A DNA stretch of 64,000 nt from Candidatus Woesebacteria bacterium (GTDB lineage Bacteria > Patescibacteriota > Microgenomatia > UBA8517). This document shows positions 5,357 through 25,212 of the stretch, in pieces. Position numbers and translations under genes: made by a program. Positions within the stretch are counted from its first letter, which is position 1, and each line of letters opens with the position of its first letter. The notes under the pieces are model-generated. The model saw only the letters and a program-made list of their open reading frames with translations. It was not told the DNA's origin and ran no database searches. The DNA is taken from NCBI GenBank assembly GCA_013374835.1, contig CP055307.1, forward strand, positions 471,315 through 535,314, in the 5' to 3' direction.

Positions 5357-5504
5357 TAGCCTCTTTTTAGGGAAATATTGGTATAAGTGTGGATTGATTT
5401 CAGAAGAGGATGAATGTTTTTGGTAATAATAAATTTTTAGCCAATCACCTTAGACATCATCTTGATTTATATTTATAAGAGGTGTAATTTTAAAAAAAGA
5501 AGTT

Positions 5505-5600
5505 GTGTTTAAGGAATCCGGTGAAAGTCCGGGGCTGTGCCGCAACCGTGAAAGACGGAAAACTAGCAACTTCATTAATCCCGAGCAGGATGGTGGTTAC
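5505..5600 (+). promoter_or_regulatory. Candidate cobalamin (B12) riboswitch aptamer
   Basis: AAGGAAUCC-GGUGAAAGUCC-GGGGCUGUGCCGCAACCGUGA fits the cobalamin-riboswitch core pattern GGUGnAAnUCC...CnGnCCCGCnACnGUnA with one mismatch. A degenerate B12-box-like GAGCAGGAUGGUGG overlaps the ATG at 5590. Confidence 0.4.
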
Positions 5601-8460: not shown

Positions 8461-9809
8461 TATTCGTTTATCAGAATTATTTTTTCGATTTTGTGATTTG
8501 ATACTGAAATCGTATTTGAATAATAGGTAAATCCTGATGCTGTTGCTTCGAGAATATAGTTTTTGTTTTCAAGATCGGGAAAATAAATTTGCCCAAAGTC
8601 GGGATCATCGCTTATTCCTGCCGATCCGCTTGCTTCTATTTGATCGTTTAATTTAAGCATTGCAGAGACCGAAGCTATGGGATTTGCTGCGCTGTCTTCA
8701 AAAATTGTTAAAAGACTAAAAGGGGTTGACGGATCTGCAAGTGATATAAACACTTCTTTTTGTGTATTTGGCTCGAGTTTGATTGGAAGGTGCGGGTTAC
8801 TTCCTGCAAACACCCTTATAGAGTCATTTGGAAGTGTGACATGATAGTTGTCCCATTCGAAATTTTGGATTTGAATTTTTCCAGTTGAATCGGATACTAC
8901 GTCTTGCTCATATTTATAAACAGGTATATCTTCCTCTGTTGTTCCTATTATTTTTTCTCCTCTTAAGTGGATTGTTTGGTTTGCTAAAGGTGCAAATTCA
9001 GATTCTCTTGTATCTACTGTGTAAATTGTAAGATTACTTAGGCGGTCAATGCTAAATGATATTTCTGTAAGCTCATTTTCTATTATGGTCAAATGCGGTT
9101 TTGACGGATTGGCTATTTCGGCTGTTGAGTAAGTTTTTTCGGTGCTAAAGCCATCTTTTGTAATTGTTATTTGATAGCATTCCGTACAAGCCGGTGCGCC
9201 GGGTAAGATGACTTTTCCATCAGAGCCTGTCATTAAGTTTAGATCTACAGCTGGGGATAGTGTCGGCGCATATATTTGTACATTGGTTTGTGGGACTGGG
9301 TTTGAGTTTGAATCAAAAACGAGGATTGAGATAGTGCCGCCGCCGGTTTCTGTTTCGATACCTTTGGGCGATAGGTCAGTAATTAAAGTAACGGTGTTTC
9401 CCTTTGAAGCGGCTATTCCTCCCCAAGAGACATCGATCCTTGCTCTCTTATAGTCGTTTGGGAGAATATCATTTGGAGCTAAGCCGTCAAAAGGATCGTC
9501 AATGTAAACGACAGAAGTTTTAATTGTATAGGTAAGGCCGTTTTCTATTATGGTTTTTATTTGGGGTAGAATGCCTTGCGGAATTCCACCTATTGTGCCT
9601 ACTTTATCAAAGGGCATGTTCCTAATTGTTTCTATTTCATAGTTGGCGATGTGCTGGGCATTGGTTCTCGCTCTTGTATAAGAGATTGTATCGTAGGCTG
9701 AGAATACAAGAGTTATTACCGCTTGGGAGAGAATGCTAAAGATGCCGAGGGTTATTATTATTCCTATAAGTATTTGGCCTTTTTGACAATTTTGAGGGCG
9801 GGGCTTCAT
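8460..9809 (-). CDS. Large minor-pilin-like protein with a prepilin-like N-terminus
   Basis: 449 aa. N-terminus KGQILIGIIITLGIFSIL is a hydrophobic, pilin-like helix. First gene of the minus-strand operon. Confidence 0.5.
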   Translation of the reverse strand: MKPRPQNCQKGQILIGIIITLGIFSILSQAVITLVFSAYDTISYTRARTNAQHIANYEIETIRNMPFDKVGTIGGIPQGILPQIKTIIENGLTYTIKTSVVYIDDPFDGLAPNDILPNDYKRARIDVSWGGIAASKGNTVTLITDLSPKGIETETGGGTISILVFDSNSNPVPQTNVQIYAPTLSPAVDLNLMTGSDGKVILPGAPACTECYQITITKDGFSTEKTYSTAEIANPSKPHLTIIENELTEISFSIDRLSNLTIYTVDTRESEFAPLANQTIHLRGEKIIGTTEEDIPVYKYEQDVVSDSTGKIQIQNFEWDNYHVTLPNDSIRVFAGSNPHLPIKLEPNTQKEVFISLADPSTPFSLLTIFEDSAANPIASVSAMLKLNDQIEASGSAGISDDPDFGQIYFPDLENKNYILEATASGFTYYSNTISVSNHKIEKIILINE

Positions 9810-9830
9810 AAATTTAGTATATCATTTATA

Positions 9831-11270
9831 ATGAAAGTACCTGCCATGTTTCGAAAAGAATTTGTATCCATAGAGTTCGGCTCTAAATATCTGAAAATTT
9901 TTAAGCTTGACAGTGGAAAAAAGAAGCCGGTAAAAATGGCTAAATATGAAATACCGGCTGGATACATTGTTAATTATCGAATCCAAAAACCAAATGAGCT
10001 TACTTTGATTCTTAAAAAGGCGTGGAAAGAGCAAAAAATTAAGGAAAAATCCGTAGGTATAGTTATTCCTGAATTTTCGACTTACACAAAGGTTTTAACG
10101 CTTCCTAGGCTTTCGAGAAGTGAGCTTGATGAAGCGATAAGGTGGCAATCCCAGGATTTTTTGCCTGTCGGGGGCTCTGTGATGATTATGGATTGGCAGA
10201 TTATAAATGAGGATAAGGACACTTTGGATTATCAAATACTTGTGGCGGCGATAGAAAAGAGCGTTCTTTCCTCGTATGTTGAAGTTGTGAGCAAGGCGGG
10301 ACTTTTGCCTTTGGTTGTTGAAACTCCTTCTCTTTCTTTAACTAGGATATCGGATGGAGATGATACGGGAAAGCTTGTTATTTATGTTTCGTCGGATGAA
10401 ACAATAATAGTATTAGCAGAGGGTAAAAAGATAGTAGCTTCTTCTGTGGCAAGCTCAACTTCTCAGAATGAGATAATTCAAAGCGCTTTGAGGGTGGTTA
10501 ACCACTACAAAGCCACCAAAATTACAAGGGTTGTTTTGGGGGGTGTTAACCTTTCTCAGGATTTTTTTAATAATGTTGCCAATTCGTTTAAAGTAAAAGT
10601 ATTTCCTTTGGAGTATAAGGGTGTTTCTTTGGATTCCGGGAAGTTTCAGGAATATGCAATTGCTCTTTCTTTGCAGCTTAAAAATCCCGAGCAGCCTTCT
10701 GATGAATATTCTATTAATTTATTACCTCCTGTATGGGAGAAGCACTATAGAAGCAGGCTTCAGAGCATTCAGTATTGGACGCTTTCTTTGATAATATCTA
10801 TTTTTATTTGGAGCTATTTTATATCGGTTGTCGGGGTTTATTTTGCACTTTCAATGAAAGCGGAAAGCTTAGGCTCATTACAGAATGTCGCTAAGACAGG
10901 TGAAGCAGAGGCTGTATTTACTAACATAAAAGATATAAACAATATTATTACAAAAGTATCTTTAATAGGCGATAAGACAAAGCAGCCTCAGGAATTGATA
11001 AACAAAATTGAATCGAGGAAAGTTGGTGGAATAAGTATAAATTATTATGATATTAATTTTGATAAAAGCGTGGTGAGTGTCCGGGGTAGAGCGTCTGATC
11101 GGGGTGCGCTTTTGGCCTTTAAGCAGTCTTTGGAGGAGGATGCTGATTTTTCAGAGATTGACTTGCCGGTTAGTAGTTTGGTAAATCAAACTGATATTGA
11201 ATTTGATCTTTCTTTTGGGTATTTACCAATGAAGGAGAAAGAAAGTCAGAAAATAAAGCTTGATATTTGA
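9831..11270 (+). CDS. pilM: Type IV pilus assembly PilM-PilN fusion protein
   Basis: The ATG at 9831 (MKVPAMFRKE) is the likely true start. The track ORF at 9723 would overlap the divergent upstream gene. The N-terminal ~340 aa look like the actin-like PilM. A TM helix near residue 350 (YWTLSLIISIFIWSYFISVVGVYF) and a periplasmic tail are PilN-like. Confidence 0.65.
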   Translation: MKVPAMFRKEFVSIEFGSKYLKIFKLDSGKKKPVKMAKYEIPAGYIVNYRIQKPNELTLILKKAWKEQKIKEKSVGIVIPEFSTYTKVLTLPRLSRSELDEAIRWQSQDFLPVGGSVMIMDWQIINEDKDTLDYQILVAAIEKSVLSSYVEVVSKAGLLPLVVETPSLSLTRISDGDDTGKLVIYVSSDETIIVLAEGKKIVASSVASSTSQNEIIQSALRVVNHYKATKITRVVLGGVNLSQDFFNNVANSFKVKVFPLEYKGVSLDSGKFQEYAIALSLQLKNPEQPSDEYSINLLPPVWEKHYRSRLQSIQYWTLSLIISIFIWSYFISVVGVYFALSMKAESLGSLQNVAKTGEAEAVFTNIKDINNIITKVSLIGDKTKQPQELINKIESRKVGGISINYYDINFDKSVVSVRGRASDRGALLAFKQSLEEDADFSEIDLPVSSLVNQTDIEFDLSFGYLPMKEKESQKIKLDI

Positions 11271-15196: not shown

Positions 15197-15480
15197 CTTC
15201 TTCTTCTGCTAATCTACTCCCCAAAGCGTGCAAAGAACGCTTTGCACTTTGAAACGGCTTGGGTTTTTAGGCCAAAACTTCAAAGGCCAATTTTCTAGCC
15301 TCATGCCTATCTAAGTCGGCTGGCTCCCAAAAGCGGGAGAAAAACAAGCCAAAAACCAAAAAAGGCCACTGAGTTAGAAAAAGCCTAAGAAGTAATGCCC
15401 CAAAAACCCCAAGGAAGCTCTCATTCTCCGCCCAATCTTGGGCAACCAGCTGGAAGGAATCCAGAAAGCAGGAGGGTCTG
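15193..15480 (+). repeat. Repeat B copy 1: conserved GC-rich ~290-bp leader element
   Basis: About 80-85% identical to 18331-18629 and 20159-20465. It begins TTGACT-(CTT)3CTG-CTAATCT and contains the palindrome GTGCAAAGaacgCTTTGCAC and the CTCCCaaaagcGGGAG hairpin. It ends in AGGAGG, 5 nt upstream of the small-ORF start. Confidence 0.8.
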
Positions 15481-15744
15481 ATGGGAGACAAAGATCCTCG
15501 AGACGAAACTCCTAAGGGATGGGAATGGCGTTTTGGTGGACCACCTCGAGATATGGCTCCTGGCCAGTACATGGAGCGAGCAGGTTCACTTGGGGGTGGA
15601 ATAGTAGTAGAGTACACTTCCGTCCCAACGCCAGATGGTGAAATGCTCATCCAGAAAACCTCCGAAATGCGTAACGGTCGTCCGATTGAAGCCGGACACG
15701 CTACTCGCCACGGTGGGAAGTGGTTTGACCGTTATCCGGAGTAA
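15481..15744 (+). CDS. Small GC-rich protein s1 (87 aa)
   Basis: Perfect SD AGGAGG, 5 nt, ATG. Gly/Pro-rich. Weak motif similarity to the s2 and 16301 ORFs. Confidence 0.4.
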   Translation: MGDKDPRDETPKGWEWRFGGPPRDMAPGQYMERAGSLGGGIVVEYTSVPTPDGEMLIQKTSEMRNGRPIEAGHATRHGGKWFDRYPE

Positions 15745-15865: not shown

Positions 15866-16258
15866 ATGTGCAAAAGCAAAGAACAAACTTTAGCCAATCA
15901 ATTCATTTTAAAAGGGCTAAAAACACCGCTAGATCCAAAAAGATACTGGGCGCCTTTAGAAGATTCTGTGCTAATGTTGCTTGACGATTTCTTTAATAAA
16001 AAGATTGACACAAAAACAACAGGGAAGATAGGGAAGATTTTATATGAATTTCAATACTTTACATATGAACTTTATTGTGTAGATCCAGAACTTTTTAAGG
16101 TATTAGACTATCTAGTCGTTTTATATAATCCATCTGTCTTAAGGACTAAGGCTAAAAATAGTGTGAAGATTAGGCAAGCAGTAAAATTGCTTAAAAATTA
16201 TTACGAAAGCAAAAAATCGCGCGTTGATTTTTTGAGAGTTTATTTTAGTAAACAGTAA
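15866..16258 (+). CDS. Hypothetical protein, ~130-aa paralog family (member 1)
   Basis: 130 aa. Its C-terminal pattern (..YF.YEL....P......YI..) resembles that of the 16580 and 21788 ORFs. Confidence 0.45.
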   Translation: MCKSKEQTLANQFILKGLKTPLDPKRYWAPLEDSVLMLLDDFFNKKIDTKTTGKIGKILYEFQYFTYELYCVDPELFKVLDYLVVLYNPSVLRTKAKNSVKIRQAVKLLKNYYESKKSRVDFLRVYFSKQ

Positions 16259-16300
16259 AACAACCAAAGTGCTTTACTCTTTCTCATCCTTATTTAAGCA

Positions 16301-16474
16301 ATGCCTGACATTGGAGCAAGTACCCACTTTGATGAGGGAAAAGGTGGATCCGATCACCAAACTGTTTATGGTGATGGATGGCACCGCTCTTGGGACATCG
16401 ACCGAGACAACAACGTCACCCGCGATCACATCACAATCCATTGGGATAGTGGCAACCAAGTCCTGAAGGACTAG
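16301..16474 (+). CDS. Possible small GC-rich ORF (57 aa), a candidate fourth member of the s1/s2 small-protein family
   Basis: Hand translation gives MPDIGASTHFDEGKGGSDHQTVYGDGWHRSWDIDRDNNVTRDHITIHWDSGNQVLKD. It shares GW.(W/R)..(F/W)...RD and TR.H...W(F)D motifs with s1. All three frames are open here, so the coding call is uncertain. Confidence 0.2.
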   Translation: MPDIGASTHFDEGKGGSDHQTVYGDGWHRSWDIDRDNNVTRDHITIHWDSGNQVLKD

Positions 16475-16493
16475 CGCACTTTCCCTTTACCAA

Positions 16494-16552
16494 GGAAGGG
16501 TGCCTTTTGAGGTCACCAATGTGTGAGGATTAACCCACCCTTCCTTTTTTTA
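16494..16552 (+). terminator. Rho-independent terminator with a long loop
   Basis: GGAAGGGTG (16494-16502) pairs with CACCCTTCC (16536-16544) and is followed by TTTTTTTATTT. Confidence 0.45.
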
Positions 16553-16579
16553 TTTATAATATCAGTATTAATTAAATAC

Positions 16580-16912
16580 ATGGATTTTGAAGATTTATTT
16601 AATAAATACCTTGCAAATCAGCTTAAAAGAAAGATGACTGAACATGATGCAAGAGAGATATTTGAAAAAGCTGCAAAGGATTATTTTTCAAAAAAAATTA
16701 GTCTTGACTTTCTCATAGGCATAGCCACACAACTTTATTTTGAGCTTCTGAAGCCGTCTGATTATACAGGAGGGGTATTTCATAATTTAATTGAAAAAAC
16801 TGCGGATTTAGATTTTTATATTGAGGAATCTAAAAAGGGAGATAAAGAAGCAAAGAGGTACATCAAAGAATACTTTTCTGAATTAAGAGAATATATAAGT
16901 AAAGCCTCATAA
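16580..16912 (+). CDS. Hypothetical protein, ~130-aa paralog family (member 2)
   Basis: The ATG at 16580 (MDFEDLF) is preferred over the track GTG at 16523, which lies inside the terminator. Similar to 21788-22186 (DLDFYIEESKKGDKEAKRYIKEYFSELREYI vs SASDFVFFLQKNDSESKKRTKAIIKELKSYYI). Confidence 0.45.
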   Translation: MDFEDLFNKYLANQLKRKMTEHDAREIFEKAAKDYFSKKISLDFLIGIATQLYFELLKPSDYTGGVFHNLIEKTADLDFYIEESKKGDKEAKRYIKEYFSELREYISKAS

Positions 16913-16964
16913 TTCCTTGTAATTTGAATTTGTATTAACACTTGTTTTTCATCCAACTAAATAT

Positions 16965-17031
16965 AAACTCTGGGTGGAGAAAGAGTGGGTCCCCAGTCCT
17001 AGCAAATACCAATAGGTATTACTCTTTCTCC
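16965..17031 (+). repeat. Repeat A copy 1: conserved structured hairpin element
   Basis: About 90% identical to 18879-18944. An 11-bp stem GGAGAAAGAGT/ACTCTTTCTCC encloses a conserved ~35-nt loop with an inner AATACCaataGGTATT hairpin and a CUGGG...CCCAG pairing. Confidence 0.7.
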
Positions 17032-17064
17032 ATATTTGTCTTTGAAGTAAAATTAAAAGTCAAG

Positions 17065-18288
17065 ATGCTTTCTGATAATTTGAAAAATTTACATCAAGAA
17101 TATCTATTGTATTACAAAGAAAATGGCATTAAGCTTCTCCCCCATGAATTGCAAAAGAGAATTGCTTATACAGCAAAAATTGCAAGAGAAAACTACAAAA
17201 GATTAAAGCATCCTATTACTACCTCTTTAGAAAATTATATAGAAATTTGTGTCCATTTTAGTCTTTCACTAGATTTAGCGACAAGATCAGTTGAAACTGT
17301 TAATTTAACCAATCCGCCTTTTAACTTCCGTGCTGCGGCAGCATATTTTCTTGAGTTACCTTACGAGCTGCACCAGAGGATTGAAAAAGATCTATTCAAT
17401 ATTCACCCTGAAAAACGCGAAGAATTTTGGAAAGATCTTAATTTAAATATACCCAAGATAGAAAAGAAATTCATCGCTATGATTGAGGAAAGAAAACGCT
17501 TTGCACAAAGTAAAGGTTATGAGTCCCAGATTGATTTATCTTTCAAGAAATCTAAAATTCCACAATCAGTTCTAAATCGTTTTGTTGTAAATCAGGATAA
17601 ATTAATTAACTTTTGCAATCAAAATCTACCAAAGATCGGAAACAAACCAGATTGGTTTTATTCAAACTTCAGTAAAACTTGTTTTTTGTGCATGATACAA
17701 CCATTTCCCTTTAGCTCTCTAGAAAGTGTATTCGAAAAAGCGACGTTTATTCATCCAATTCTACAAAAGTATAATGAAAAAATAACTATTAAGCCTTCGG
17801 GAAGTTCGCACACCACGTATAAGGAAGGAACTGATAGCTTTGAGGTATATATTGAAAATGACCAAAACCTCCGTCATCAGATTGTTGATCTCGTCCACGA
17901 GTTGGGACATGTAATAAATAATCTTGAAGACCTAAACAAAAACAAGAATCCTTTCTTAAAAGGAAGATTCTTGGCTGAAAAAGAGGCTAATGAGATTGAA
18001 ATTGATTTTTATAAAAAGACATCAAGACTTCTTTATCAAGCTTCCTTTGGATGGATTCTTTGGTTGTTTAGAAGGACATTATTCGAGATAGAATTACACA
18101 AAAATCCACGACAAAACCTAAGCAAACTTTATGCCGATACTTATAACAAGTGTTTTAAAGGGGCAAATCAAAAATCAAACCCCACATACTTTATAGATAC
18201 TTATATCTCCCTGAGACCTTTTTCAACCCTACCCCATACGCTGGCATATTCTGAAGTAGTTACTAAACTAATAGAGAAGAAAAAGTAG
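17065..18288 (+). CDS. M3-like (oligoendopeptidase F-like) zinc metallopeptidase paralog 1, shortened
   Basis: HELGHVIN is an HExxH motif, with a Glu (AEKEANE) downstream. The PepF-like segment ERKRFAQSKGYESQIDLSF is present. ATG at 17065 preferred over the TTG at 16942, which reads through repeat A. About 30-35% identical to the 18975 paralog. Confidence 0.5.
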   Translation: MLSDNLKNLHQEYLLYYKENGIKLLPHELQKRIAYTAKIARENYKRLKHPITTSLENYIEICVHFSLSLDLATRSVETVNLTNPPFNFRAAAAYFLELPYELHQRIEKDLFNIHPEKREEFWKDLNLNIPKIEKKFIAMIEERKRFAQSKGYESQIDLSFKKSKIPQSVLNRFVVNQDKLINFCNQNLPKIGNKPDWFYSNFSKTCFLCMIQPFPFSSLESVFEKATFIHPILQKYNEKITIKPSGSSHTTYKEGTDSFEVYIENDQNLRHQIVDLVHELGHVINNLEDLNKNKNPFLKGRFLAEKEANEIEIDFYKKTSRLLYQASFGWILWLFRRTLFEIELHKNPRQNLSKLYADTYNKCFKGANQKSNPTYFIDTYISLRPFSTLPHTLAYSEVVTKLIEKKK

Positions 18289-18330
18289 TTGGAAATAAGT
18301 TTCTATGATTTGCTTTTTTCTGATTACAAC

Positions 18331-18629
18331 TTGACTTCTTCTTCTTCTGATAATCTACTCCCCAAAGCGTGCAAAAAACGTCTTGCACATTCACAGGCTT
18401 GGGTTTGAGGCTCAACTTCTAGGGAATCTTTTCTAACTTCACACCCTCAAAAACGGCTAACTCCCAAAAGCGGGAGGAAAAAACTAGCCAAATCTAAATG
18501 TGGTCAATGAGGTTAGAAAAAACCTGAAGAGGAAGAGCCAAAAAAAACCAAGGAAGCTCTCTTTTCCGCCCAATCCCGGGCAGCCCACTGGCGGGTTGCC
18601 AGATGAAATCTGAGAAAGGAGAGTCCCTA
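18331..18629 (+). repeat. Repeat B copy 2
   Basis: TTGACT-(CTT)4CTG-ATAATCT... Same conserved hairpins as copy 1. Ends with AAGGAGAG 7 nt before the ATG at 18630. Confidence 0.8.
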
Positions 18630-18857
18630 ATGGGCGATCCCGGAAGACTCATTCGGGCTAGTGATGTAAATCAAATCCCACCTGGTGCAATGGTGGTGGG
18701 AAGCTACATCATGTTCCCCGACGCCGAGGGTGGTCTGCACCCCACGCCACAAGAGCGCGTCTCGTCAGATATCCGACGGGAAAGCAATACGCGAACTATT
18801 ACTGGCGGAAACTGTGGCCAAGACCCCTCTTTGGTACCTAACGTATCAAAAAAGTGA
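18630..18857 (+). CDS. Small GC-rich protein s2 (75 aa from the SD-proximal ATG)
   Basis: Begins MGD like s1. VVGSYIMFPDAEGG resembles VVEYTSVPTPDGE in s1. Confidence 0.4.
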   Translation: MGDPGRLIRASDVNQIPPGAMVVGSYIMFPDAEGGLHPTPQERVSSDIRRESNTRTITGGNCGQDPSLVPNVSKK

Positions 18858-18878
18858 GTCTGGCCATGACAACTAAAT

Positions 18879-18944
18879 AAATTCTGGGAGGAGAAAGAGT
18901 GGGTCCCAGCCCTAGCAAATACCAATAGGTATTACTCTTTCTCC
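18879..18944 (+). repeat. Repeat A copy 2 (also serves as a terminator-like hairpin after s2)
   Basis: Same stem and loop as copy 1, followed by TTTTAAGTT. Confidence 0.7.
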
Positions 18945-18974
18945 TTTTAAGTTCCAAAATAGTAAAATAAGAAA

Positions 18975-20162
18975 GTGTACACCTACTTAAAAATCTACAG
19001 GGAAAGAGGACTCAATCCTGACATCAAATCGTTAATCAAACTTATATCTAGACAATCAAAACTTGCAAAAGATCAATACCAAAAACTAAGCACTCCCAAA
19101 ACAATGTCGGAAGGTCTTTATGTTCATGCTTGGGTAAGGAATGCTGTTATTCATGATATTTATGAAAATATAAAAATCATAAGACCAGAGCATGAATATA
19201 AAGCCTCAATAGACTTCTATTTAGCATTTCCTAACTCACTTCGTAAAAAGCTTAGAAAAGACATAAACAGTGCTACATTAGATCAAAGAGCAAAAGTGTG
19301 GAATAAATATAAGCTAGATTTTAAAAAAATAGAGAAAACATTCATAGCACTTACAATTCAAAGAAACACATGGGCTAAACAAAAAGGTTTTAAAAACTTT
19401 CTTGAAGAAAAGCTAAAACACTACAAAATACCAAGAAAAGATTATGAATTATTCAAGGCTCAAACCAACAATCTAATTAAATATTGTAATAGTCAACTGC
19501 CCAAAATAAAACTGCCATCAATTGTATTAACAGAATTTACCAAGCCTTGTTATCTTTGTCTTTCAACTAACTTTCCATTTACCAATCTTGAAGAAACAAT
19601 TAATTTTGTCTTTGGTGAATACGAAATTCTCCAGAAATTCAAAAAAAAGATAAAAATTAAATTCACTGATTATTCAGAAATGAGTTATAACGTTCAGGAC
19701 GATTCTTTTGAAATTAGTATAGAAAAAGATACTAACCTCCGTCACCAATCCCTAGCAATAATCCATGAACTAATCCATGTCGTAAATCACATTGAAAGTT
19801 ATAAAAGGGGATTCTTACCTTCCGAGAAAGGAAATTATTTTCAAGAAAAAGAAACACTAAAAAAAGAGATTCCGCTACTTAAAAAGATATCACCAGTTTT
19901 TTATAAATCCATCTTTAGTGAATTTCTTAAAGTCTTCCAACAAGTACTATTTGAAATAGAACTCTATAACAATCCTAATCAGAATTTAAGCAAGCTTTAT
20001 GCGGATGTTTACAACCTTTGCTATCCTCAGGCAAACCAAAAGCAAAATAGATCATTTATTCTGAATAAAGACATAGTAGAGCAACCCCTCTCAATCCTCC
20101 CCAACGCCATAGCCCAATCCATAGTCATCAAAAAATATTTGAAGCTGAACACATCCTCTTGA
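18975..20162 (+). CDS. M3-like zinc metallopeptidase paralog 2, shortened
   Basis: HELIHVVN is an HExxH motif. NPNQNLSKLYADVYN is conserved with paralog 1. A KQKGFKNFLEE segment is also present. Confidence 0.5.
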   Translation: MYTYLKIYRERGLNPDIKSLIKLISRQSKLAKDQYQKLSTPKTMSEGLYVHAWVRNAVIHDIYENIKIIRPEHEYKASIDFYLAFPNSLRKKLRKDINSATLDQRAKVWNKYKLDFKKIEKTFIALTIQRNTWAKQKGFKNFLEEKLKHYKIPRKDYELFKAQTNNLIKYCNSQLPKIKLPSIVLTEFTKPCYLCLSTNFPFTNLEETINFVFGEYEILQKFKKKIKIKFTDYSEMSYNVQDDSFEISIEKDTNLRHQSLAIIHELIHVVNHIESYKRGFLPSEKGNYFQEKETLKKEIPLLKKISPVFYKSIFSEFLKVFQQVLFEIELYNNPNQNLSKLYADVYNLCYPQANQKQNRSFILNKDIVEQPLSILPNAIAQSIVIKKYLKLNTSS

Positions 20163-20465
20163 CTTCTTCTTCTTCTTCTTCTGCTAACCTTGCTCCCAAA
20201 GCGTGCAAAGGACGCTTTGCACTTTGAAACGGCTTGGGTTTTTAGGCCAAAGCTTGGAGGTTTGTTTCTATCCCCATACCATCTATGATGAGCCGACTCC
20301 CAAAAGCGGGAGTAAAAACAGGCCAAACGCAAAAACGGTCACTGGGTAGAAAAAGCTAAAGAAACAAAGCCAAAAAACTCCAAGGAGGCTCTCATTCTCC
20401 GCCCAATCCCGGGCAACCAGCTGGAAGGAATCCGGTAAAGGGAGACAAAAAGACAGGAGGTTTCT
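20159..20465 (+). repeat. Repeat B copy 3
   Basis: TTGACT-(CTT)5CTG-CTAACCT, giving an optimal 17-nt spacer. Ends AGGAGG, 5 nt, then GTG. Confidence 0.8.
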
Positions 20466-20657
20466 GTGAATAACAGCAAGGGAAGCGGCGGAAAAGCAGG
20501 CAGTACTTCCATAACAGTAAAGCTGCCCATGGATCTGTCTCTCATAAAGGAACTTAACCAACAGTTCACTGTGGAAGAGGCTGCCAAGCAAACAAGCACC
20601 ACAAAACAGGAAGCAAAAGAAGCCTGGAAAGCCGCAAAGGAAGATAGTAGCAACTAG
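20466..20657 (+). CDS. Small protein s3 (63 aa, GTG start), Lys/Ala/Glu-rich and unrelated to s1/s2
   Basis: Perfect SD spacing. Contains a helical KEAWKAAKE-type C-terminal region. Confidence 0.35.
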   Translation: MNNSKGSGGKAGSTSITVKLPMDLSLIKELNQQFTVEEAAKQTSTTKQEAKEAWKAAKEDSSN

Positions 20658-20695
20658 GTTTCTGAACATTAGAGCTTCCTAATATCTCAACTCAT

Positions 20696-20760
20696 GGAAT
20701 GTCGGATTCCATAGCAGTCATAATAAGATATGCTAAGAGTCCGACATTCCAAATCATCTT
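20696..20760 (+). terminator. Long hairpin after s3
   Basis: GGAATGTCGGATTC (20696-20709) pairs with GAGTCCGACATTCC (20737-20750), a 14-bp stem with one G-U pair. The downstream U-tract is weak. Confidence 0.3.
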
Positions 20761-20785
20761 TCAAAAAATATATAATTAACCCAAT

Positions 20786-21118
20786 ATGAAACAAGCTACA
20801 ACTTTAAGTAAACAAGAAGAAGACAGACTGGTAGAAATTATAAGACTTGGACAAGAAAGTAACGCCACAGAAAAACAAAAGAAAGATTCTCTCAAAGCGA
20901 TGGAAAAACTGTTAATCTACTTACAACCATTGGTAGCAAACATTGCCTTAAAATACGCAGCAGGAACTATCCATCATGATGAACTAATTCGAATCGGAAA
21001 TATTGGAGTAAGAAAAGCAATACTTAAATATAATCCCAATAGAAACTTTAAGTTTTCGACTTACGCTTCGTGGTATATTAGAGCAGAAATTCACAAGAAA
21101 TTGGGTCTTCCTCTATAA
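20786..21118 (+). CDS. Truncated sigma-70 family protein (regions 1.2 through 2.3 only)
   Basis: LVANIALKYAAGTIHHDELIRIGNIGVRKAILKYNPNRNFKFSTYASWYIRAEI matches sigma70 region 2 (..FSTYATWWIRQAI..). The ORF stops after region 2.3, so regions 2.4, 3 and 4 are absent. Confidence 0.5.
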   Translation: MKQATTLSKQEEDRLVEIIRLGQESNATEKQKKDSLKAMEKLLIYLQPLVANIALKYAAGTIHHDELIRIGNIGVRKAILKYNPNRNFKFSTYASWYIRAEIHKKLGLPL

Positions 21119-21158
21119 TCTAGTTTTAAATTTCTCTGTTATCCATAATTGAATAAAT

Positions 21159-21641
21159 ATGGACGTTAAGCTTAAAAAATTATTTTATGAAGACAAGATC
21201 CTTCGTGTTTTAGGTCCTGAATGGAAAAGAGTAAAACGGTTTATAGGTGATGAGGAAGTTGAGGTAAGAAATAGTTTTTTCTTAGAGACAAAAGATGGGA
21301 TTAAAATTGAGTTTTTTATCTTATCCCCAGAAACATACCAAGAATGTTATTCGGTTAAAATAGAACAATATGTTCGCAGAAAAAGTAAAGAAAGTGGTGG
21401 TTACTACAGCGAAGTATCAACTATTCATTTTCAAGAAATAACAACTGTGAAGTATTTTTATAAATTGGGAATGATAGCAATGATTAGCAAGCAGAAGGAT
21501 TATTTTTCCGACCTCTGGTTATACAAAAGCGGAGCAGTCAGAATATCGGTTGCGCACCCCATATCCTTTTACAACAAACAAGACTTATGGACATATGATA
21601 TGGCCAACCGCGAAGGCGAAGAGGTTTTTACATTAGAATAA
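21159..21641 (+). CDS. Hypothetical protein
   Basis: 160-aa ORF with no recognised domain. Confidence 0.4.
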   Translation: MDVKLKKLFYEDKILRVLGPEWKRVKRFIGDEEVEVRNSFFLETKDGIKIEFFILSPETYQECYSVKIEQYVRRKSKESGGYYSEVSTIHFQEITTVKYFYKLGMIAMISKQKDYFSDLWLYKSGAVRISVAHPISFYNKQDLWTYDMANREGEEVFTLE

Positions 21642-21787
21642 CCCACTTTCTTGTCTATATTATATTAATGTTTTACTTTGTAAAGCTAAAAAAGATTAAT
21701 TCTCAAAATAGGTATAAACATATTCAAACACAAGACTACTAAGGAAGACCAAAAGACGATTACCTTTAAATAAAATATAATTATTTT

Positions 21788-22186
21788 ATGAGAGCTAAAA
21801 GAAAAACTAAAAGCAAATCTGGCTTTGAGAGATATGATTATGTCTTTTCAGGAATTAAACTATCAGAACCTCTTTCTATTAAACAAATTAAGTCAATTTT
21901 TTTGATATTACTTCATGATTATTTTCAAAATGAAATAGATGAATTTTTTCTAGAATCTTTAGCAGGTGATTTGTATTTTAACCTATCTGAATCACCAAAC
22001 TATATACAGGCAAAAGACCCTGAACTAAGTCTGGCTCTTGATAGCGCATCAGATTTTGTTTTCTTTCTTCAGAAGAATGATTCTGAAAGCAAGAAAAGAA
22101 CTAAAGCAATAATTAAGGAATTAAAAAGCTATTATATTAAAAATCGCAATGAAATAGAGCATTATTCTCATGATTCCAGTGATTGA
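21788..22186 (+). CDS. Hypothetical protein, ~130-aa paralog family (member 3)
   Basis: Similar to the 16580 and 15866 proteins. Confidence 0.45.
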   Translation: MRAKRKTKSKSGFERYDYVFSGIKLSEPLSIKQIKSIFLILLHDYFQNEIDEFFLESLAGDLYFNLSESPNYIQAKDPELSLALDSASDFVFFLQKNDSESKKRTKAIIKELKSYYIKNRNEIEHYSHDSSD

Positions 22187-22299
22187 TTTTGATTCCATTA
22201 ATGGGGGGATTTAGGAAAGCAGATTATGATTTTTTGCTCTTGCACAGCCTGTGTTGCTATCAAAACGATGAGTTGGGCAATAAGTATTACAACCTAAGA

Positions 22300-22959
22300 C
22301 TAGAGATAATCTCTCCATTTATTATCCTGAATTATCTCTGGAATAGATTTTTTTTGTTTTACCAACCACGCTCGTAATTTTTGTTGGGCAGGATACCCCT
22401 TTTCTTCTGGATTAGTGAATACAGTTAAAGCTTCTTTAAGTGATTCAAATTTTTCTTTTCCCAACTCCTTTTTTAGATTCCCAAAATAATAATAAAACAT
22501 AAAATGATTAAGTTCATGAGTTAGAATTTGAAGCTGTCTTTCAGGAATTGCCCCTCCAAAAACCATAATCCATTTCTTTTCAAAATTGTAAGGACAAATT
22601 GGCAGAGAAGAAAGATATATTTTGATTTGTTTGAATGGGATCTTGCGCCCATATATTTTTTGTAGTCTATTTTCTATTTGGGAACCGTTTTTCACCCATG
22701 CCGATTTCAGCTCTTGAGCAACAACTGAATATTTTGCCTTTCTACTCTCTAAATTCTGGGAAAGGAAATCTTTAATTATATTTCTTGCTTGTTTTTCGCT
22801 TTTACTATTTTTAAGATCAATCCTAACCCTCTCCGGGAGAGCGCTAAAAAATTTATCTTGAAGATTGTCCCTTCCATGTTTGTACCACACAAACTTATAA
22901 ACAGATCTTAAATAATTCCATACATCAAGATCCAACGAATAACTTACTTTTATATCCAT
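22300..22959 (-). CDS. Hypothetical HExxH protein (possible zinc metallohydrolase)
   Basis: 219 aa; HExxH motif ILTHELNHFMF. Confidence 0.4.
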   Translation of the reverse strand: MDIKVSYSLDLDVWNYLRSVYKFVWYKHGRDNLQDKFFSALPERVRIDLKNSKSEKQARNIIKDFLSQNLESRKAKYSVVAQELKSAWVKNGSQIENRLQKIYGRKIPFKQIKIYLSSLPICPYNFEKKWIMVFGGAIPERQLQILTHELNHFMFYYYFGNLKKELGKEKFESLKEALTVFTNPEEKGYPAQQKLRAWLVKQKKSIPEIIQDNKWRDYL

Positions 22960-23307
22960 AAATGTATAAGCTTTATTTTAGCTTTCAGTTACAACTAGGT
23001 TTGGTTTAAAATCTGGATCTGGTGCCCTTCACAAATGTCAAAGCAATCTCCAGAGTCAAAGCGACTACAGTCGCTTGCATCACAATTCTGCCATCTTGTA
23101 TAAATTATACTCTAAAAATTAACAAGCTTGTGATGGATATAATGATTATATCGCGAACATCTAACTGTTTGTTTTAGATATTAAATCTATAGTTTTTAAA
23201 ATAAAGGCAAGCTGATACAAAAATTCAGAGGGTTAGAAAAAGCCAGAGAAACAAATCCTTAGAAAAAAATTAAATTACTATTTTTTGGTTTTATGGTATT
23301 ATAGGAT

Positions 23308-25212
23308 GTGATTATGAAAGAAAATCTTAGAAATACCGTAAAAATTTTTTCAGGAGGTATGCTCCTTCTTTCTTCAACACTTGGACCTATTTCTGAAAAA
23401 AACCAAAAAAATCCCCAAAAGCCATATTCAAATTTACCAAAACCATACACCCAAAGCATAGGTTTAGTAGGTGATTTTCAAATGGGAGATGTATTTATTC
23501 CAGACTTTGAAACAAAAGAAAATCAAATTCAAAAAGAATTTCTTCCTGAAATACCATCAATCAGCCTTGAGGATGAAGAATCAAGACTTGTCTCAGAGAT
23601 AGTAACAAGGAAAGCTCCAGACACCCTGATGGCAGTATCTCTTGATCCGGAAAAGATGGAAAAACTTCAAAATATCACCAATCCAGATCTTTCCCAAAGT
23701 TTTGAAAGAGTTCTTTTTTTGCAGGAAGAAGCAAAAAACTGGGGTGGAGAACTGTCCATAAAGCTTCTTACCCAAACAAACAAAGATTCTGAAATCAAAA
23801 AAGTTTCAGTTGTACTTGAAGCACAAAATGATTTTACTTGGAATGAAGTAGAATATAAAAGTGGTGGAGTAATATTTTATGGAAGTGAAGGAGACCTTCA
23901 TTGGATTAATCCAGCGGAGGAAGGATCAAAAATAGTCATTGCAAAATTAGACGATACACTCAAGGAGGATCTACTAAAAGCTCTGACAAGATGTGGATAC
24001 ATAAATGAAAACAGATCCTTTGAATTCCCAGCCAATGGATCACTCATCCCTGTGGAGGTAGACAAAGATGGAAACATATCACAAATAATTACTAAGGAAG
24101 CTGCATACTTTCTTACACTCAGAACCTTCTCACAAGGAGCAAATGTAAATCTAAGGGAAGAGCCAAATACCACCTCTCAAATCTTGGGACAGATAAATAA
24201 AGAAGTTGTGATCCCCAACCCTGAGGGAATACCTGATAATTTAGACCTTTTTGGGGCAATTATAAATGAAGATGAAATGATAGAGGTGTCAAACGAAGGT
24301 TATACATGGATCCTTGTAGAAACCCCCACACCAGAAGGTCAGGTAGAATACGCCTGGGTTGCTTACTCCCTGCCTCAGGTAAAAGGTATCCCCTTAAAAC
24401 AAGTAGCAGTAGGACCAAATATTGATAGCTTTGACCATTTTAGGGAGTCTGAGGAAATATTTTTAGGCTATTCAAATGAAATATTTGGAAGCAACGGAGA
24501 ATATCTTGGAAGACCTTGGCAGGGGGAATATGCTGTAACTCCAGATACAAAGGTGTATTATTCTGGAGTTGATCCTCATGTGATTTCAGGAAGTATAGTG
24601 GTAGGTGGTGAACAATATCGTATTTATTCAGATGGGTATCATGATGGAATATACGCAACAGAATATCCACAACACAAATATTTTATTGTTCATCCAAATG
24701 GGACTTTTGTAGGTTTTTTGGGAGAGAGGATAGTAACAAACCTTTCCCTTACAAATCCTGAAACAGGAGCTGTTGTTGATGGAATAAATATTGATAGACT
24801 GGAGGTAATAGATATTATGATGCTAGTTAAGCAAAATGGAAAGGATTATAAGATTGCATTTTCTATCCCTAAGGAAATAATGTTTGCAGACTTTTCAGGG
24901 GGCAGATTTGATGTTGTGCGCGATACTCAAACTTTCGTCTTGCCTAGACTAATTCCTGGTATCAAAGTCTCTGCTAGTGTTCTATTTTATCTTAATTCTT
25001 GGGAGGAGTTTGTAAAGCAAATTTTACACAACATTGAAGGTATTAGTGAATGGACAGGGATATATGAGGTGGTTAGAATTGATCTTGCGACCTTAGAATA
25101 CCAAAATAGATATAGAGATGCTGGTTTGAATTTAAGTAAAGGTGTACTTGAAAATGACAAGATTTATGATATTGGTATCACTCCTACTTTGAGTTTTACT
25201 TCACGGAACTAG
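23308..25212 (+). CDS. Large secreted protein with an SH3b-like domain
   Basis: Signal-peptide-like N-terminus (LLLSSTLGPIS). The segment ANVNLREEPNTTSQILGQINKEVVIPNPEG...GYTWILVETPTPEGQVEYAWVAYSL looks like a bacterial SH3 domain. Confidence 0.5.
   Translation: MIMKENLRNTVKIFSGGMLLLSSTLGPISEKNQKNPQKPYSNLPKPYTQSIGLVGDFQMGDVFIPDFETKENQIQKEFLPEIPSISLEDEESRLVSEIVTRKAPDTLMAVSLDPEKMEKLQNITNPDLSQSFERVLFLQEEAKNWGGELSIKLLTQTNKDSEIKKVSVVLEAQNDFTWNEVEYKSGGVIFYGSEGDLHWINPAEEGSKIVIAKLDDTLKEDLLKALTRCGYINENRSFEFPANGSLIPVEVDKDGNISQIITKEAAYFLTLRTFSQGANVNLREEPNTTSQILGQINKEVVIPNPEGIPDNLDLFGAIINEDEMIEVSNEGYTWILVETPTPEGQVEYAWVAYSLPQVKGIPLKQVAVGPNIDSFDHFRESEEIFLGYSNEIFGSNGEYLGRPWQGEYAVTPDTKVYYSGVDPHVISGSIVVGGEQYRIYSDGYHDGIYATEYPQHKYFIVHPNGTFVGFLGERIVTNLSLTNPETGAVVDGINIDRLEVIDIMMLVKQNGKDYKIAFSIPKEIMFADFSGGRFDVVRDTQTFVLPRLIPGIKVSASVLFYLNSWEEFVKQILHNIEGISEWTGIYEVVRIDLATLEYQNRYRDAGLNLSKGVLENDKIYDIGITPTLSFTSRN

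What the first reader, a model, noticed from the sequence alone, without database searches (positions are those of the whole stretch)
17065..20162. Two divergent, shortened M3-family (PepF-like) metallopeptidase paralogs embedded in the repeat modules
Both proteins (407 aa and 395 aa) carry HExxH (HELGHVIN / HELIHVVN), a downstream Glu, and the PepF-like (R/K)..A..KG(Y/F) segment. They are roughly 200 residues shorter than canonical oligoendopeptidase F and only about 30-35% identical to each other. Each is preceded by repeat A and followed by repeat B plus a small ORF. An oligopeptidase paired with a fast-evolving small peptide gene suggests a processing-enzyme/substrate relationship. It could equally be a decayed duplicated housekeeping gene.
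Basis: partly seen in the sequence, partly recalled or inferred. Interest (0 to 1): 0.55.

Follow-up and report, generated by a model that had tools for sequence, protein, structure and literature searches.

The report
Compact PepF-like peptidases with small partner
Two intact, very divergent copies of a previously undescribed short zinc peptidase related in fold to oligoendopeptidase F sit in a candidate-phyla-radiation bacterium. Across related genomes this peptidase is usually preceded by one conserved small protein and often by one conserved folded RNA, so it looks like a dedicated three-part module rather than a decayed housekeeping gene.

Summary
Window 17065-18288 (407 aa) and 18975-20162 (395 aa) are intact paralogs, 36% identical, with HExxH and a Glu 23 residues downstream.

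They are not Pfam or NCBIfam M3 members. The window proteins give no M3 hit, and the one scoring family member inspected reaches 25.7 bits against a cut-off of 27. A 46-sequence family profile does hit PepF 2QR4 best (E 0.0023). A pLDDT-96 model matches only the PepF / Pz-peptidase / M32 / ACE / neurolysin fold. They therefore belong to a distinct compact family of about 223 clusters with no name or Pfam domain. Every named genome is Patescibacteria, apart from four probably mislabelled MAGs, and no viral relative was found.

New findings:
- A conserved small protein sits directly upstream of 17 of 25 non-redundant peptidase genes. Its Glu and Cys are invariant (motif GxGC.Q). In the window it is 18630-18857, before copy 2.
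- "Repeat A" is a conserved pseudoknotted RNA upstream of the peptidase, absent from Rfam. It is 87% identical between the two window copies, while the coding sequences are 36% identical.

Best reading: a cytoplasmic zinc oligopeptidase acts on the flexible Cys-bearing tail of the small protein, or is controlled by it, under an RNA attenuator. The decay and ImmA-like readings are rejected. This is a new variant of a known kind, of moderate interest.

The parts
17065..18288 (+). Peptidase copy 1 (407 aa). A compact neurolysin/PepF-fold gluzincin with zinc ligands H278, H282 and E305 and catalytic E279.
   Evidence: ORF; motif positions; family alignments; AF2 model with pLDDT 95.9; Foldseek hits to PepF, M32 and ACE.
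18975..20162 (+). Peptidase copy 2 (395 aa, GTG start), with HELIH at residues 264-268. This copy has the family's usual arrangement: small protein, then RNA element, then peptidase.
18630..18857 (+). Small protein of 75 aa from the ATG that follows AAAGGAGAG (the ORF is also open from 18603). It belongs to the conserved GxGC.Q family, with E51 and C62 invariant and Q64 nearly invariant.
   Evidence: Profile hits directly upstream of peptidase genes. The third codon position is the most variable, 0.68 against 0.51 and 0.47. There are 41 database homologs. The AF2 model has a confident beta-hairpin and helix and a low-confidence tail.
16955..17042 (+). An 11-bp outer stem GGAGAAAGAGU/ACUCUUUCUCC encloses two hairpins. 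The 5' flank pairs with the first hairpin's loop to form a pseudoknot, and a T/U-rich tract follows.
   Evidence: Covariance model R1, 74.5 bits; pair counts; MFE z-score -3.08.
18871..18955 (+). RNA element copy 2, lying between the small protein gene and peptidase copy 2.
   Evidence: R1, 77.6 bits; z-score -4.35; 87% identical to copy 1.
18338..18629 (+). Repeat B copy 2, the conserved roughly 290-nt leader of the small protein gene. The predicted fold pairs CUCUC with the Shine-Dalgarno GAGAG.
15197..15744 (+). Repeat B copy 1 (15197-15480) plus an 87-aa ORF (15481-15744; AGGAGG, 6 nt, then ATG). The ORF had no homolog in the related loci compared.
20172..20657 (+). Repeat B copy 3 (20172-20465) plus a 63-aa ORF (20466-20657; AGGAGG followed by GTG). 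The ORF had no homolog in the related loci compared.
16523..16912 (+). A protein of about 130 aa (the likely start is the ATG at 16580) directly upstream of RNA copy 1 and peptidase copy 1. Paralogs lie at 15866-16258 (my assignment from alignment only) and 21788-22186. The same family neighbours the peptidase in 7 other fetched loci.
   Evidence: No Pfam or PDB relatives.
16301..16474 (+). A 57-aa D/G/H-rich small ORF (..GWHRSWDIDRD..) that precedes the roughly 130-aa gene. By eye it resembles D/R-rich small ORFs that precede the same gene family in L001.
   Evidence: E 2.7e-5 to L001 11715-12014.

Best explanation
The two genes encode active, soluble, cytoplasmic zinc oligopeptidases. They belong to a distinct, compact family of about 400 aa. 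The family shares the two-lobed helical PepF / neurolysin / M32 / ACE fold but has roughly 90 fewer residues on each side of the HExxH than PepF. In the data searched, the family was found in Patescibacteria (CPR) genomes and environmental metagenomes.

In this family the peptidase gene is the last part of a conserved three-part module:
1. A small protein gene with a strong ribosome-binding site. Its product has a small folded beta-hairpin-plus-helix body and a flexible C-terminal tail carrying the invariant Cys in GxGC.Q.
2. An RNA element of about 85 nt that is pseudoknotted, enclosed by a long stem, and followed by a T/U-rich tract.
3. The peptidase gene, which has no obvious Shine-Dalgarno sequence.

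My reading is as follows. The RNA acts in cis as a terminator-like attenuator, keeping peptidase expression low relative to the small protein. The peptidase's dedicated target is the flexible tail of the small protein, which it trims or degrades. It may also act on the other small, disordered-looking proteins of this island.

The window carries one canonical module (copy 2) and a second, anciently diverged copy (copy 1). Copy 1 kept the RNA element but sits behind a gene of about 130 aa instead of the small protein gene.

Shown: fold, catalytic motifs, gene linkage, coding status of the small ORF, and RNA structure with covariation. Inferred: enzymatic activity, the substrate relationship, and attenuation.
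For: Fold and catalytic site:
- HExxH plus a Glu 23 residues downstream are conserved across the family.
- The AF2 model has pLDDT 95.9. A three-strand sheet precedes the HExxH helix and the Glu helix.
- The Foldseek top 50 are exclusively PepF, Pz-peptidase A, M32 carboxypeptidase, ACE and neurolysin (probability 0.60-1.00, all 1.00 in the top 17; TM 0.26-0.54).
- The family profile's best PDB hit is PepF 2QR4 (E 0.0023), aligned from the R..A..KGY region through HExxH.
- Pfam Peptidase_M3 scores in 5 of 46 members, best E 8.8e-6.
- There is no hydrophobic segment; the maximum Kyte-Doolittle 19-residue window is 1.1-1.2.

Family:
- 223 clusters at 50% identity. All named members are called hypothetical and have no Pfam domain.
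- Of the 8 named genome loci, 4 are Patescibacteria, Blackburnbacteria or Shapirobacteria MAGs and 4 carry Gammaproteobacteria or Pseudomonadales labels that I judge to be mislabels. No relative was found in viral contigs.

Linkage to the small protein:
- The small GxGC.Q protein is directly upstream in 17 of 25 non-redundant evaluable peptidase genes.
- Its codon-position divergence of 0.51 / 0.47 / 0.68 indicates a coding sequence.
- E and C are invariant in 40 sequences.
- The model gives pLDDT 82-91 for the body and 55-65 for the tail.

RNA element:
- 25 pairs including the pseudoknot are 89.6% paired. Ten pairs show changes on both sides. The covariation score is 0.260 against 0.146 in shuffles (0 of 500 reach it). 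Slid controls are 46-58% paired.
- The covariance model's 15 strong hits (60-95 bits) are all on the gene strand immediately upstream of peptidase genes (10 distinct sequences were in the seed alignment). The reverse strand scores 16-28 bits.
- The two window copies are 87% identical, while the coding sequences are 36% identical in amino acids and 51% in nucleotides.

Precedent: PepF acts on one dedicated intracellular peptide, degrading the XIP pheromone in Streptococcus salivarius (PMC9173638).
Against: - No biochemical or structural evidence shows that the small protein contacts the peptidase.
- Eight of 25 peptidase genes lack the small ORF upstream, including copy 1 here.
- An invariant Cys is more typical of a metal ligand or a modification site than of a cleavage site.
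- A -10-like box (TAAAAT or TATAAT) was read by eye 7-13 nt before several start codons. This suggests the peptidase may have its own promoter. The RNA could then simply be the 3' end of the upstream transcript.
- The consensus terminator scan did not flag the element.
- The peptidase model was built from an MSA of this family only. TM-scores to solved enzymes are modest (about 0.5), so which lobes are trimmed is not resolved.
Confidence: 0.45

Rival explanations
1. The small protein is a trans-acting latency factor rather than a substrate. Its flexible tail enters the active-site channel and the invariant Cys thiolate, helped by the invariant Glu, caps the catalytic zinc. This is analogous to the cysteine switch of matrix-metalloprotease pro-domains. 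The small protein is made in excess and holds the peptidase inactive until it is removed.
For: - Cys and Glu are invariant and Gln nearly invariant in an otherwise variable, low-confidence tail.
- The small gene comes first with a strong Shine-Dalgarno sequence. The peptidase comes second, behind a terminator-like RNA and without a Shine-Dalgarno sequence, which would give an excess of the small protein.
- The conserved partner is a zinc enzyme.
- The C-G-x-D-P string resembles the MMP PRCGxPD motif. This is recalled from my own knowledge and is a lead, not a test.
Against: - No complex model or biochemistry is available.
- Cytoplasmic oligopeptidases of this fold are not known to need inhibitors, because their channel already excludes folded proteins.
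- The motif resemblance is short and could be chance.
- Eight of 25 peptidase genes have no such partner adjacent.
Confidence: 0.2
2. These are general housekeeping oligopeptidases that recycle intracellular peptides in a reduced genome, a functional stand-in for PepF. The adjacency to the small ORF and to the RNA reflects ordinary operon and terminator organisation with no specific functional tie.
For: - The fold and catalytic site are those of generalist oligopeptidases.
- The proteins are cytoplasmic and soluble.
- Some family members have neither the small ORF nor the roughly 130-aa gene upstream: L006, L020, L023 and L030.
- Apart from the roughly 130-aa gene family, seen in 8 of 35 fetched loci, no other conserved neighbour family was found beside the small ORF.
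Against: - The same small-protein family lies directly upstream in 17 of 25 non-redundant genes whose peptidases are only about 37% identical on average.
- A sequence-conserved, covarying RNA is found only upstream of this gene in 284 kb searched.
- Two paralogs are retained intact in a genome of roughly 0.9 Mb (size inferred from the 901,682-bp contig).
Confidence: 0.2
3. The two genes are decaying duplicates of a housekeeping M3 gene, that is, pseudogenes or genes on the way to becoming pseudogenes.
For: - They are shorter than PepF, very divergent, and give no Pfam M3 hit.
- Second tandem copies elsewhere do decay. L013 2508-2874 is in fragments, and L021 2854-4082 is split between two overlapping ORFs.
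Against: - Both window ORFs are intact with all catalytic residues.
- The short length is a family trait, shared by the many full-length (roughly 380-420 aa) members among the 223 clusters.
- The model is very confident, at pLDDT 95.9.
- Each copy is closer to orthologs elsewhere than to the other copy.
Confidence: 0.03
4. They are ImmA/IrrE-type (M78) regulatory metalloproteases that cleave a repressor.
For: A weak Pfam Peptidase_M78 match surrounds the HExxH. It scores 19.6 bits (E 8e-4) in copy 1 and appears in 13 of 46 family members. There is also a weak PHROG metallo-protease hit.
Against: - The score is below Pfam's cut-off of 22, and the match covers only the zincin core.
- The whole-protein fold is of the PepF/M32/ACE type, and no M78 structure appears among the hits.
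- No helix-turn-helix repressor is conserved next to the gene.
- PADLOC gives no hit.
Confidence: 0.02

Closest known systems
Oligoendopeptidase F / Pz-peptidase A (MEROPS M3B; PDB 2H1N, 2H1J, 3AHM, 3SKS, 2QR4)
   Same: - HExxH plus a downstream Glu (gluzincin).
- The R..A..KG[YF] helix before the catalytic domain aligns.
- This is the best sequence-profile and fold match.
- The protein is cytoplasmic and soluble.
   Different: - It is 160-190 residues shorter, roughly 90 on each side of the HExxH by my estimate from the alignment.
- Identity is 12-13% in the structural alignments.
- It is below the Pfam M3 cut-off and has no NCBIfam model.
- The conserved small-protein and RNA partners are not a described feature of pepF loci, to my knowledge.
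M32 carboxypeptidases (Pfu/Taq type, PDB 1K9X, 5E3X, 3DWC) and M2 ACE/AnCE
   Same: They share the two-lobed helical zincin fold and rank interleaved with PepF in Foldseek (E 1.9e-4 for 1K9X). ACE2 chains also appear in the profile search.
   Different: The window proteins give no Pfam M32 or M2 match. Sequence-profile evidence favours PepF over these families. These families are about 500-600 aa long.
PepF as a dedicated degrader of an intracellular signalling peptide (XIP in Streptococcus salivarius; PMC9173638)
   Same: An oligopeptidase of this fold has one specific small gene product as its physiological target. This serves as a functional analogy.
   Different: XIP is a short pheromone that is exported and re-imported, and its gene is not adjacent to pepF. 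Here the partner is a 45-90 aa protein with no signal peptide evident by eye, encoded immediately upstream.
Precursor gene, stem-loop attenuator, then processing-enzyme operons of ribosomally made peptides (own knowledge)
   Same: A small, highly translated ORF is followed by a stable stem-loop with a U tract and then an enzyme gene. The invariant Cys lies in a flexible region.
   Different: No modifying enzyme (radical SAM, cyclodehydratase, lanthipeptide synthetase or transporter) is conserved in the neighbourhood. The RNA is far more elaborate and sequence-conserved than a simple attenuator hairpin.

Membership tests
Peptidase family M3 (MEROPS M3 / Pfam PF01432), subfamily M3B PepF | HExxH zinc-binding motif on the active-site helix | tested here: met
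   HELGH at residues 278-282 and HELIH at residues 264-268. The motif is at least 90% conserved in 46 family members.
Peptidase family M3 (MEROPS M3 / Pfam PF01432), subfamily M3B PepF | Third zinc ligand Glu about 23-25 residues after the second His (gluzincin) | tested here: met
   E305 lies 23 residues after H282. It is invariant in A2 and at least 90% conserved in A4, and it sits on the helix after the HExxH helix in the model.
Peptidase family M3 (MEROPS M3 / Pfam PF01432), subfamily M3B PepF | Match to the family's curated sequence model at or above its cut-off | tested here: not met
   Neither window protein hits Pfam Peptidase_M3 at E up to 1. The one scoring family member inspected (best E 8.8e-6) reaches 25.7 bits against a cut-off of 27. 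NCBIfam has no pepF/M3 hit.
Peptidase family M3 (MEROPS M3 / Pfam PF01432), subfamily M3B PepF | Two-lobed, mostly helical neurolysin-like fold | tested here: met
   Foldseek gives PepF 2H1N at E 1.5e-4 and 3AHM at TM 0.54, probability 1.0. The fold is shared with M32 and M2, so this places the protein in the superfamily rather than in M3 specifically.
Peptidase family M3 (MEROPS M3 / Pfam PF01432), subfamily M3B PepF | Full-length architecture of about 560-700 aa including the PepF N-terminal region | tested here: not met
   The proteins are 407 and 395 aa. The profile alignment places query residue 109 at chain residue 184 of 2QR4, which is 587 aa long. Full-length family members are roughly 380-420 aa, with many shorter clusters.
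Peptidase family M3 (MEROPS M3 / Pfam PF01432), subfamily M3B PepF | Zinc-dependent hydrolysis of oligopeptides | not testable with these tools
   This needs an enzyme assay.
Peptidase M78 (ImmA/IrrE) | Match to PF06114 above its cut-off and an M78-type fold | tested here: not met
   The score is 19.6 bits, below the cut-off of 22. No M78 structure appears among the fold hits.
Any Rfam RNA family (for repeat A and repeat B) | Covariance-model match | tested here: not met
   Nothing overlaps the elements at gathering score or at E up to 1 in the window. Nothing was found in 14 related loci.
Cis-regulatory structured RNA (riboswitch- or attenuator-like) | Conserved secondary structure supported by compensatory changes, strand-specific, at a fixed position relative to one gene family | tested here: met
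   All 15 strong covariance-model hits lie directly upstream of peptidase genes on the gene strand.
Cis-regulatory structured RNA (riboswitch- or attenuator-like) | Ligand- or factor-dependent control of termination or translation | not testable with these tools
   This needs in-line probing, termination assays, or transcript end mapping.
RiPP precursor / leader-peptidase pair | Conserved modifying enzyme or exporter genes next to the precursor | tested here: not met
   Clustering of neighbours across 35 loci found only the small ORF and the roughly 130-aa family as recurrent partners.

The most novel reading that the evidence does not exclude
The leader RNA, the small Cys-tail protein and the compact PepF-fold peptidase together form a previously undescribed, CPR-specific regulatory or maturation system.

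In this reading the roughly 85-nt pseudoknot is a new riboswitch or protein-binding leader class that gates the peptidase. The invariant Glu / Cys-x-Gln of the small protein marks a specific chemistry, either zinc capping in trans or a Cys-dependent modification or crosslink, rather than a plain cleavage site.
Probability: 0.2. Interest if true: 0.8.

Novelty: new variant of a known kind. Interest (0 to 1): 0.55.

Why it matters
CPR/Patescibacteria genomes are tiny and full of unannotated genes. This analysis gives three linked unknowns a concrete, testable framework:
- a family of about 400-aa proteins;
- a small protein of 45-90 aa with no database name and no precomputed Pfam domain;
- an RNA absent from Rfam.

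The framework is a minimal version of the PepF/ACE fold tied to one small partner and one structured RNA.

For peptidase classification, it defines a compact lineage that falls just outside M3.

For RNA biology, it offers a covarying pseudoknot with a fixed genetic context. That combination is the usual starting point for riboswitch discovery.

For CPR biology, it points to dedicated small-protein proteolysis within an island of duplicated modules.

Tried and rejected
- Pfam, NCBIfam, PADLOC and PHROGs searches on both peptidases and their neighbours gave nothing above cut-off.
- A single-sequence search against PDB gave nothing meaningful.
- The search for related loci with the 46-sequence alignment failed because no conserved stretch was found. 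I used the 10-sequence alignment instead.
I redid it with database homologs.
- A fold search with the small protein found no match.
- A profile of repeat B found no homolog outside the window among the 13 loci then held. Leaders of the small ORF in other loci share a different conserved hairpin and do not align with repeat B.
- With three copies, RNAalifold could not decide the strand of repeat B.
- The roughly 130-aa family has no Pfam or PDB relatives.
- The viral contig scan found no relatives.
- Literature searches for PepF in Patescibacteria and for CPR structured RNAs returned nothing.
- I considered a fused-chain complex prediction. I dropped it because the tool reports no inter-chain geometry and accepts only exact window or database sequences.


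Full report
**1. The observation**

Copy 1 is 17065-18288 (407 aa from the ATG). Copy 2 is 18975-20162 (395 aa, GTG start).
- The longer ORF from TTG 16942 runs through a conserved RNA element, and homologs begin at the ATG. I therefore take 17065 as the real start.
- HELGH is at residues 278-282 of copy 1 and HELIH at residues 264-268 of copy 2.
- A Glu lies 23 residues after the second His. It is invariant among close relatives and at least 90% conserved in a 46-member alignment.
- The copies share 36% identity over 392 residues (E 6e-78).
- Neither copy has a hydrophobic segment, so both are probably soluble and cytoplasmic.
- Repeat A precedes each gene, and three copies of repeat B each precede a small ORF with a good Shine-Dalgarno sequence.

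**2. Whether they are M3/PepF**

By curated sequence models they are not.
- Pfam gives no Peptidase_M3 hit for either protein at E up to 1. It gives only a sub-threshold M78 match around the HExxH, at 19.6 bits against a cut-off of 22.
- NCBIfam gives nothing, and a single-sequence search of PDB gives nothing.

The remote signal nevertheless points to PepF.
- An exhaustive profile search found 223 clusters at 50% identity. Full-length members are roughly 380-420 aa, and many clusters are shorter.
- A profile of 46 of them hits PepF 2QR4 best in PDB (E 0.0023). The alignment runs from the R..A..KGY helix through the HExxH. Three more PepF or Pz-peptidase chains and many ACE2 chains follow.
- Five of the 46 members score on Pfam M3, with a best E of 8.8e-6. 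That member reaches 25.7 bits, just under the cut-off of 27.

An AlphaFold2 model of copy 1 built with this alignment is very confident, with pLDDT 95.9 and pTM 0.93. It is almost all helical, with a three-strand sheet just before the HExxH helix and the Glu helix.

Foldseek against PDB returns only the neurolysin-like fold.
- The hits include PepF 2H1N (E 1.5e-4), M32 carboxypeptidase 1K9X, Pz-peptidase A 3AHM (TM 0.54) and PepF 3SKS.
- ACE/AnCE, other M32 enzymes and neurolysin make up the rest. Identity is 10-14%.

The proteins are therefore genuine relatives of the M3/M32/M2 fold and closest to M3B. They form a separate compact family.
- From the profile alignment I estimate about 90 fewer residues on each side of the HExxH than in PepF.
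- All database members with a name are called hypothetical and have no Pfam domain.
- Of the 8 named genome loci, 4 are Patescibacteria-group MAGs, including Blackburnbacteria and Shapirobacteria. The other 4 are automated MAGs labelled Gammaproteobacteria or Pseudomonadales, which I judge to be mislabelled.
- No viral relative was found. PADLOC and PHROGs gave no significant match.

**3. The paralogs are not decaying duplicates**

- Both window copies keep the zinc ligands, and the family-conserved residues I could check in the pairwise alignment.
- Each copy is more similar to orthologs in other genomes (about 44%) than to the other copy (36%). The duplication is therefore old, or one copy was acquired.
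- Tandem second copies recur elsewhere (L015, L021, L013), and some of those are broken. L013 2508-2874 is in fragments, and L021 2854-4082 is split between two overlapping ORFs.
- Duplication and loss are thus ongoing in the family, but the window copies are intact.

**4. A conserved small-protein partner**

Reading the DNA upstream of the peptidase in 35 fetched loci showed a small ORF with a shared core: Y.SADGRVH.TP.EAI.ASL.FE..SGTGAGC.Q[DS]P.NV.
- A profile of it finds the ORF directly upstream in 17 of 25 non-redundant, evaluable peptidase genes.
- In the window it is 18630-18857. This is the ORF after repeat B2 and immediately before repeat A and copy 2.
- It is a real gene. Pairwise differences by codon position are 0.51, 0.47 and 0.68.
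- 41 database proteins match the profile. The only names given are "hypothetical protein", and none has a Pfam domain.
- A Glu and a Cys are invariant, and the Gln two residues after the Cys is nearly invariant, in 40 sequences.
- Its AF2 model has a confident beta-hairpin plus helix (pLDDT 82-91). The tail carrying GGNCGQDP is low-confidence (55-65).
- No solved fold matches it.

Of the 8 peptidase genes without the small ORF:
- three are second tandem copies (window copy 1, L015a, L021b);
- three, partly overlapping that set (window copy 1, L007, L015a), have a roughly 130-aa gene upstream instead.

That roughly 130-aa family has two BLAST-supported copies in the window and a probable third at 15866-16258. 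It recurs in 7 other fetched loci and has no Pfam or PDB relatives.

The 87-aa and 63-aa ORFs behind repeat B1 and B3 had no homolog in the related loci compared at that stage.

**5. Repeat A is a structured RNA**

The stretch upstream of the peptidase gene is conserved across genomes, including where no small ORF is present.
- An 11-bp outer stem (GGAGAAARGGU / ACCYUUUCUCC) encloses two hairpins and is followed by a T/U-rich tract.
- The 4-6 nt just 5' of the stem are complementary to the loop of the first hairpin and change with it. Examples are CUGGGA/UCCCAG, CUGGAA/UUCCAG, UAGU/ACUA, UGAA/UUCA and AGCUGA/UCAGCU. This is an H-type pseudoknot.

Evidence for the structure:
- On a 12-sequence alignment, the 25 pairs are 89.6% paired and 10 show changes on both sides. 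The covariation score is 0.260 against 0.146 in shuffles (0 of 500 reach it). Slid controls give 46-58% paired.
- A covariance model without the pseudoknot finds 15 hits of 60-95 bits. All are on the gene strand immediately upstream of peptidase genes. Ten distinct sequences among them were used to build the model.
- The reverse strand scores 16-28 bits, and nothing comparable occurs elsewhere in 284 kb.
- The two window copies fold with z-scores of -4.35 and -3.08.
- The two window copies are 87% identical. The adjacent coding sequences are 36% identical in amino acids and 51% in nucleotides, and 39% at third positions. This implies strong constraint or gene conversion on the RNA.
- Rfam 15 has no match in the window or in 14 related loci.

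By eye, a second variant occurs in other loci (L003, L027, L028, L013, L021, L024).
- Its outer stem is GAAAGAAGAUUG/CAAUCUUCUUUC.
- Its own covarying pseudoknot pairs include GUGGUA/UACCAC, GUGACU/AGUCAC and GUGAUU/AAUCAC.
- An A-rich AAAACUGAAUAAGU motif lies upstream.

**6. Repeat B**

The three copies are conserved over about 290 nt. B1 and B3 are about 90% identical, and B2 is about 60-70% identical to them. The ORFs behind them are unrelated.
- RNAalifold predicts a long pyrimidine/purine closing helix. It also predicts pairing of CUCUC with the Shine-Dalgarno sequence on the gene strand.
- With three sequences the two strands cannot be told apart.
- No homolog of repeat B was found among the 13 loci held at the time. 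By eye, the small ORF's leaders in other genomes share their own hairpin and a CACC...GGUG helix that encloses the Shine-Dalgarno sequence.

**7. How it most likely works**

- *Shown:* a zincin of the PepF fold with an intact catalytic site; conserved order of small protein, pseudoknotted RNA with a T/U tract, then peptidase; a strong ribosome-binding site on the small gene and none evident on the peptidase.
- *Inferred:* the RNA limits read-through or otherwise gates the peptidase, so the small protein is made in excess. The peptidase's channel takes the small protein's flexible tail. I rank cleavage (maturation or turnover) first and thiol capping of the zinc second. PepF acting on one dedicated peptide has a precedent in XIP degradation in Streptococcus salivarius (PMC9173638).
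- *Caveat:* a -10-like box read by eye 7-13 nt before several start codons leaves open that the peptidase has its own promoter. In that case the RNA would be the upstream transcript's 3' end.

**8. Verdict**

- the fold is right;
- family membership is not met;
- the small-protein link is real, but with the upstream ORF;
- the decay reading is rejected.

The peptidase is a new variant of a known kind. The conserved small protein and the RNA pseudoknot are the more novel parts.

Noticed in passing
window 15197-15480, 18338-18629, 20172-20465: Repeat B is a leader of about 290 nt conserved in three copies before unrelated small ORFs. The predicted fold has a long pyrimidine/purine closing helix and a CUCUC:GAGAG helix that would hide the Shine-Dalgarno sequence. 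No homolog was found among the 13 related loci held at the time, and the strand is undecided with three copies.
   Followed up: partly
window 16301-16474; L001 6854-7132, 8026-8334, 11715-12014, 12719-12994; L011 8092-8256: A second kind of small ORF, rich in D, R, G, S and H, has (by eye) a shared H.SWD.D-like motif. Each one precedes a gene of the roughly 130-aa helical family. This may be a second conserved small-protein/partner pair in the same islands.
   Followed up: partly
window 15866-16258, 16523-16912, 21788-22186: These look like three paralogs of an uncharacterised, helical-looking family of about 130 aa, with a conserved ..IA..LY.. core. The 15866-16258 copy is assigned from alignment only (15% identity). 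The family has no Pfam or PDB relatives and recurs near the peptidase in 7 other fetched loci.
   Followed up: partly
window 22300-22959 (minus strand): A 219-aa ORF carries another HExxH (HELNH). It has no Pfam, NCBIfam or PADLOC hit and may be a further unclassified metallopeptidase-like protein next to the island.
   Followed up: no
window 20786-21118: A 110-aa ORF matches only region 2 of sigma-70 factors (Pfam Sigma70_r2, E 3.6e-11), so it is either a truncated or a minimal sigma-like protein. L001 has a full-length 203-aa sigma-70-family factor (regions 2 and 4) about 4 kb from its peptidase.
   Followed up: partly
window 16000-24000: The island differs in composition from its flanks. 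GC skew is near zero or negative (elsewhere mostly +0.1 to +0.3) and AT skew is positive.
   Followed up: no
L003 about 9760-9860 (estimated); L027, L028, L013, L021, L024 (between small ORF and peptidase): By eye, a second variant of the intergenic RNA occurs here. Its outer stem is GAAAGAAGAUUG/CAAUCUUCUUUC and it has its own covarying pseudoknot and an upstream AAAACUGAAUAAGU motif. L003 and L028 carry both variants in tandem.
   Followed up: partly
L013 2508-2874; L021 2854-4082; L015 974-2185 and 4001-5224: Tandem second copies of the peptidase recur in other genomes. Some are fragmented or split between overlapping ORFs, while L015 has two intact copies.
   Followed up: partly
L007 4363-5657 (minus strand): An ORF with a CxxxCxxC motif that looks (by eye) like a radical SAM/SPASM enzyme is followed by a 57-aa D/H/G/S-rich small ORF, about 1 kb downstream of that locus's peptidase.
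   Followed up: no
window 5500-5572: An AdoCbl-II (cobalamin) riboswitch aptamer scores above Rfam's gathering score (38.7 bits). It overlaps the start of the ORF 5503-6450.
   Followed up: no
window 40121-63978: A long same-strand run of ORFs of about 500-560 aa lies here. Several carry PMT_2 glycosyltransferase domains, one with TPR repeats. Type IV pilus genes (T2SSE ATPase, PilM) lie at 1741-3423 and 9723-11270.
   Followed up: partly
L007, L009, L012, L013 (record titles): Contigs carrying this CPR-type gene family are labelled 'uncultured Gammaproteobacteria' or 'Pseudomonadales' in third-party MAG records. These are probably taxonomic mislabels.
   Followed up: no
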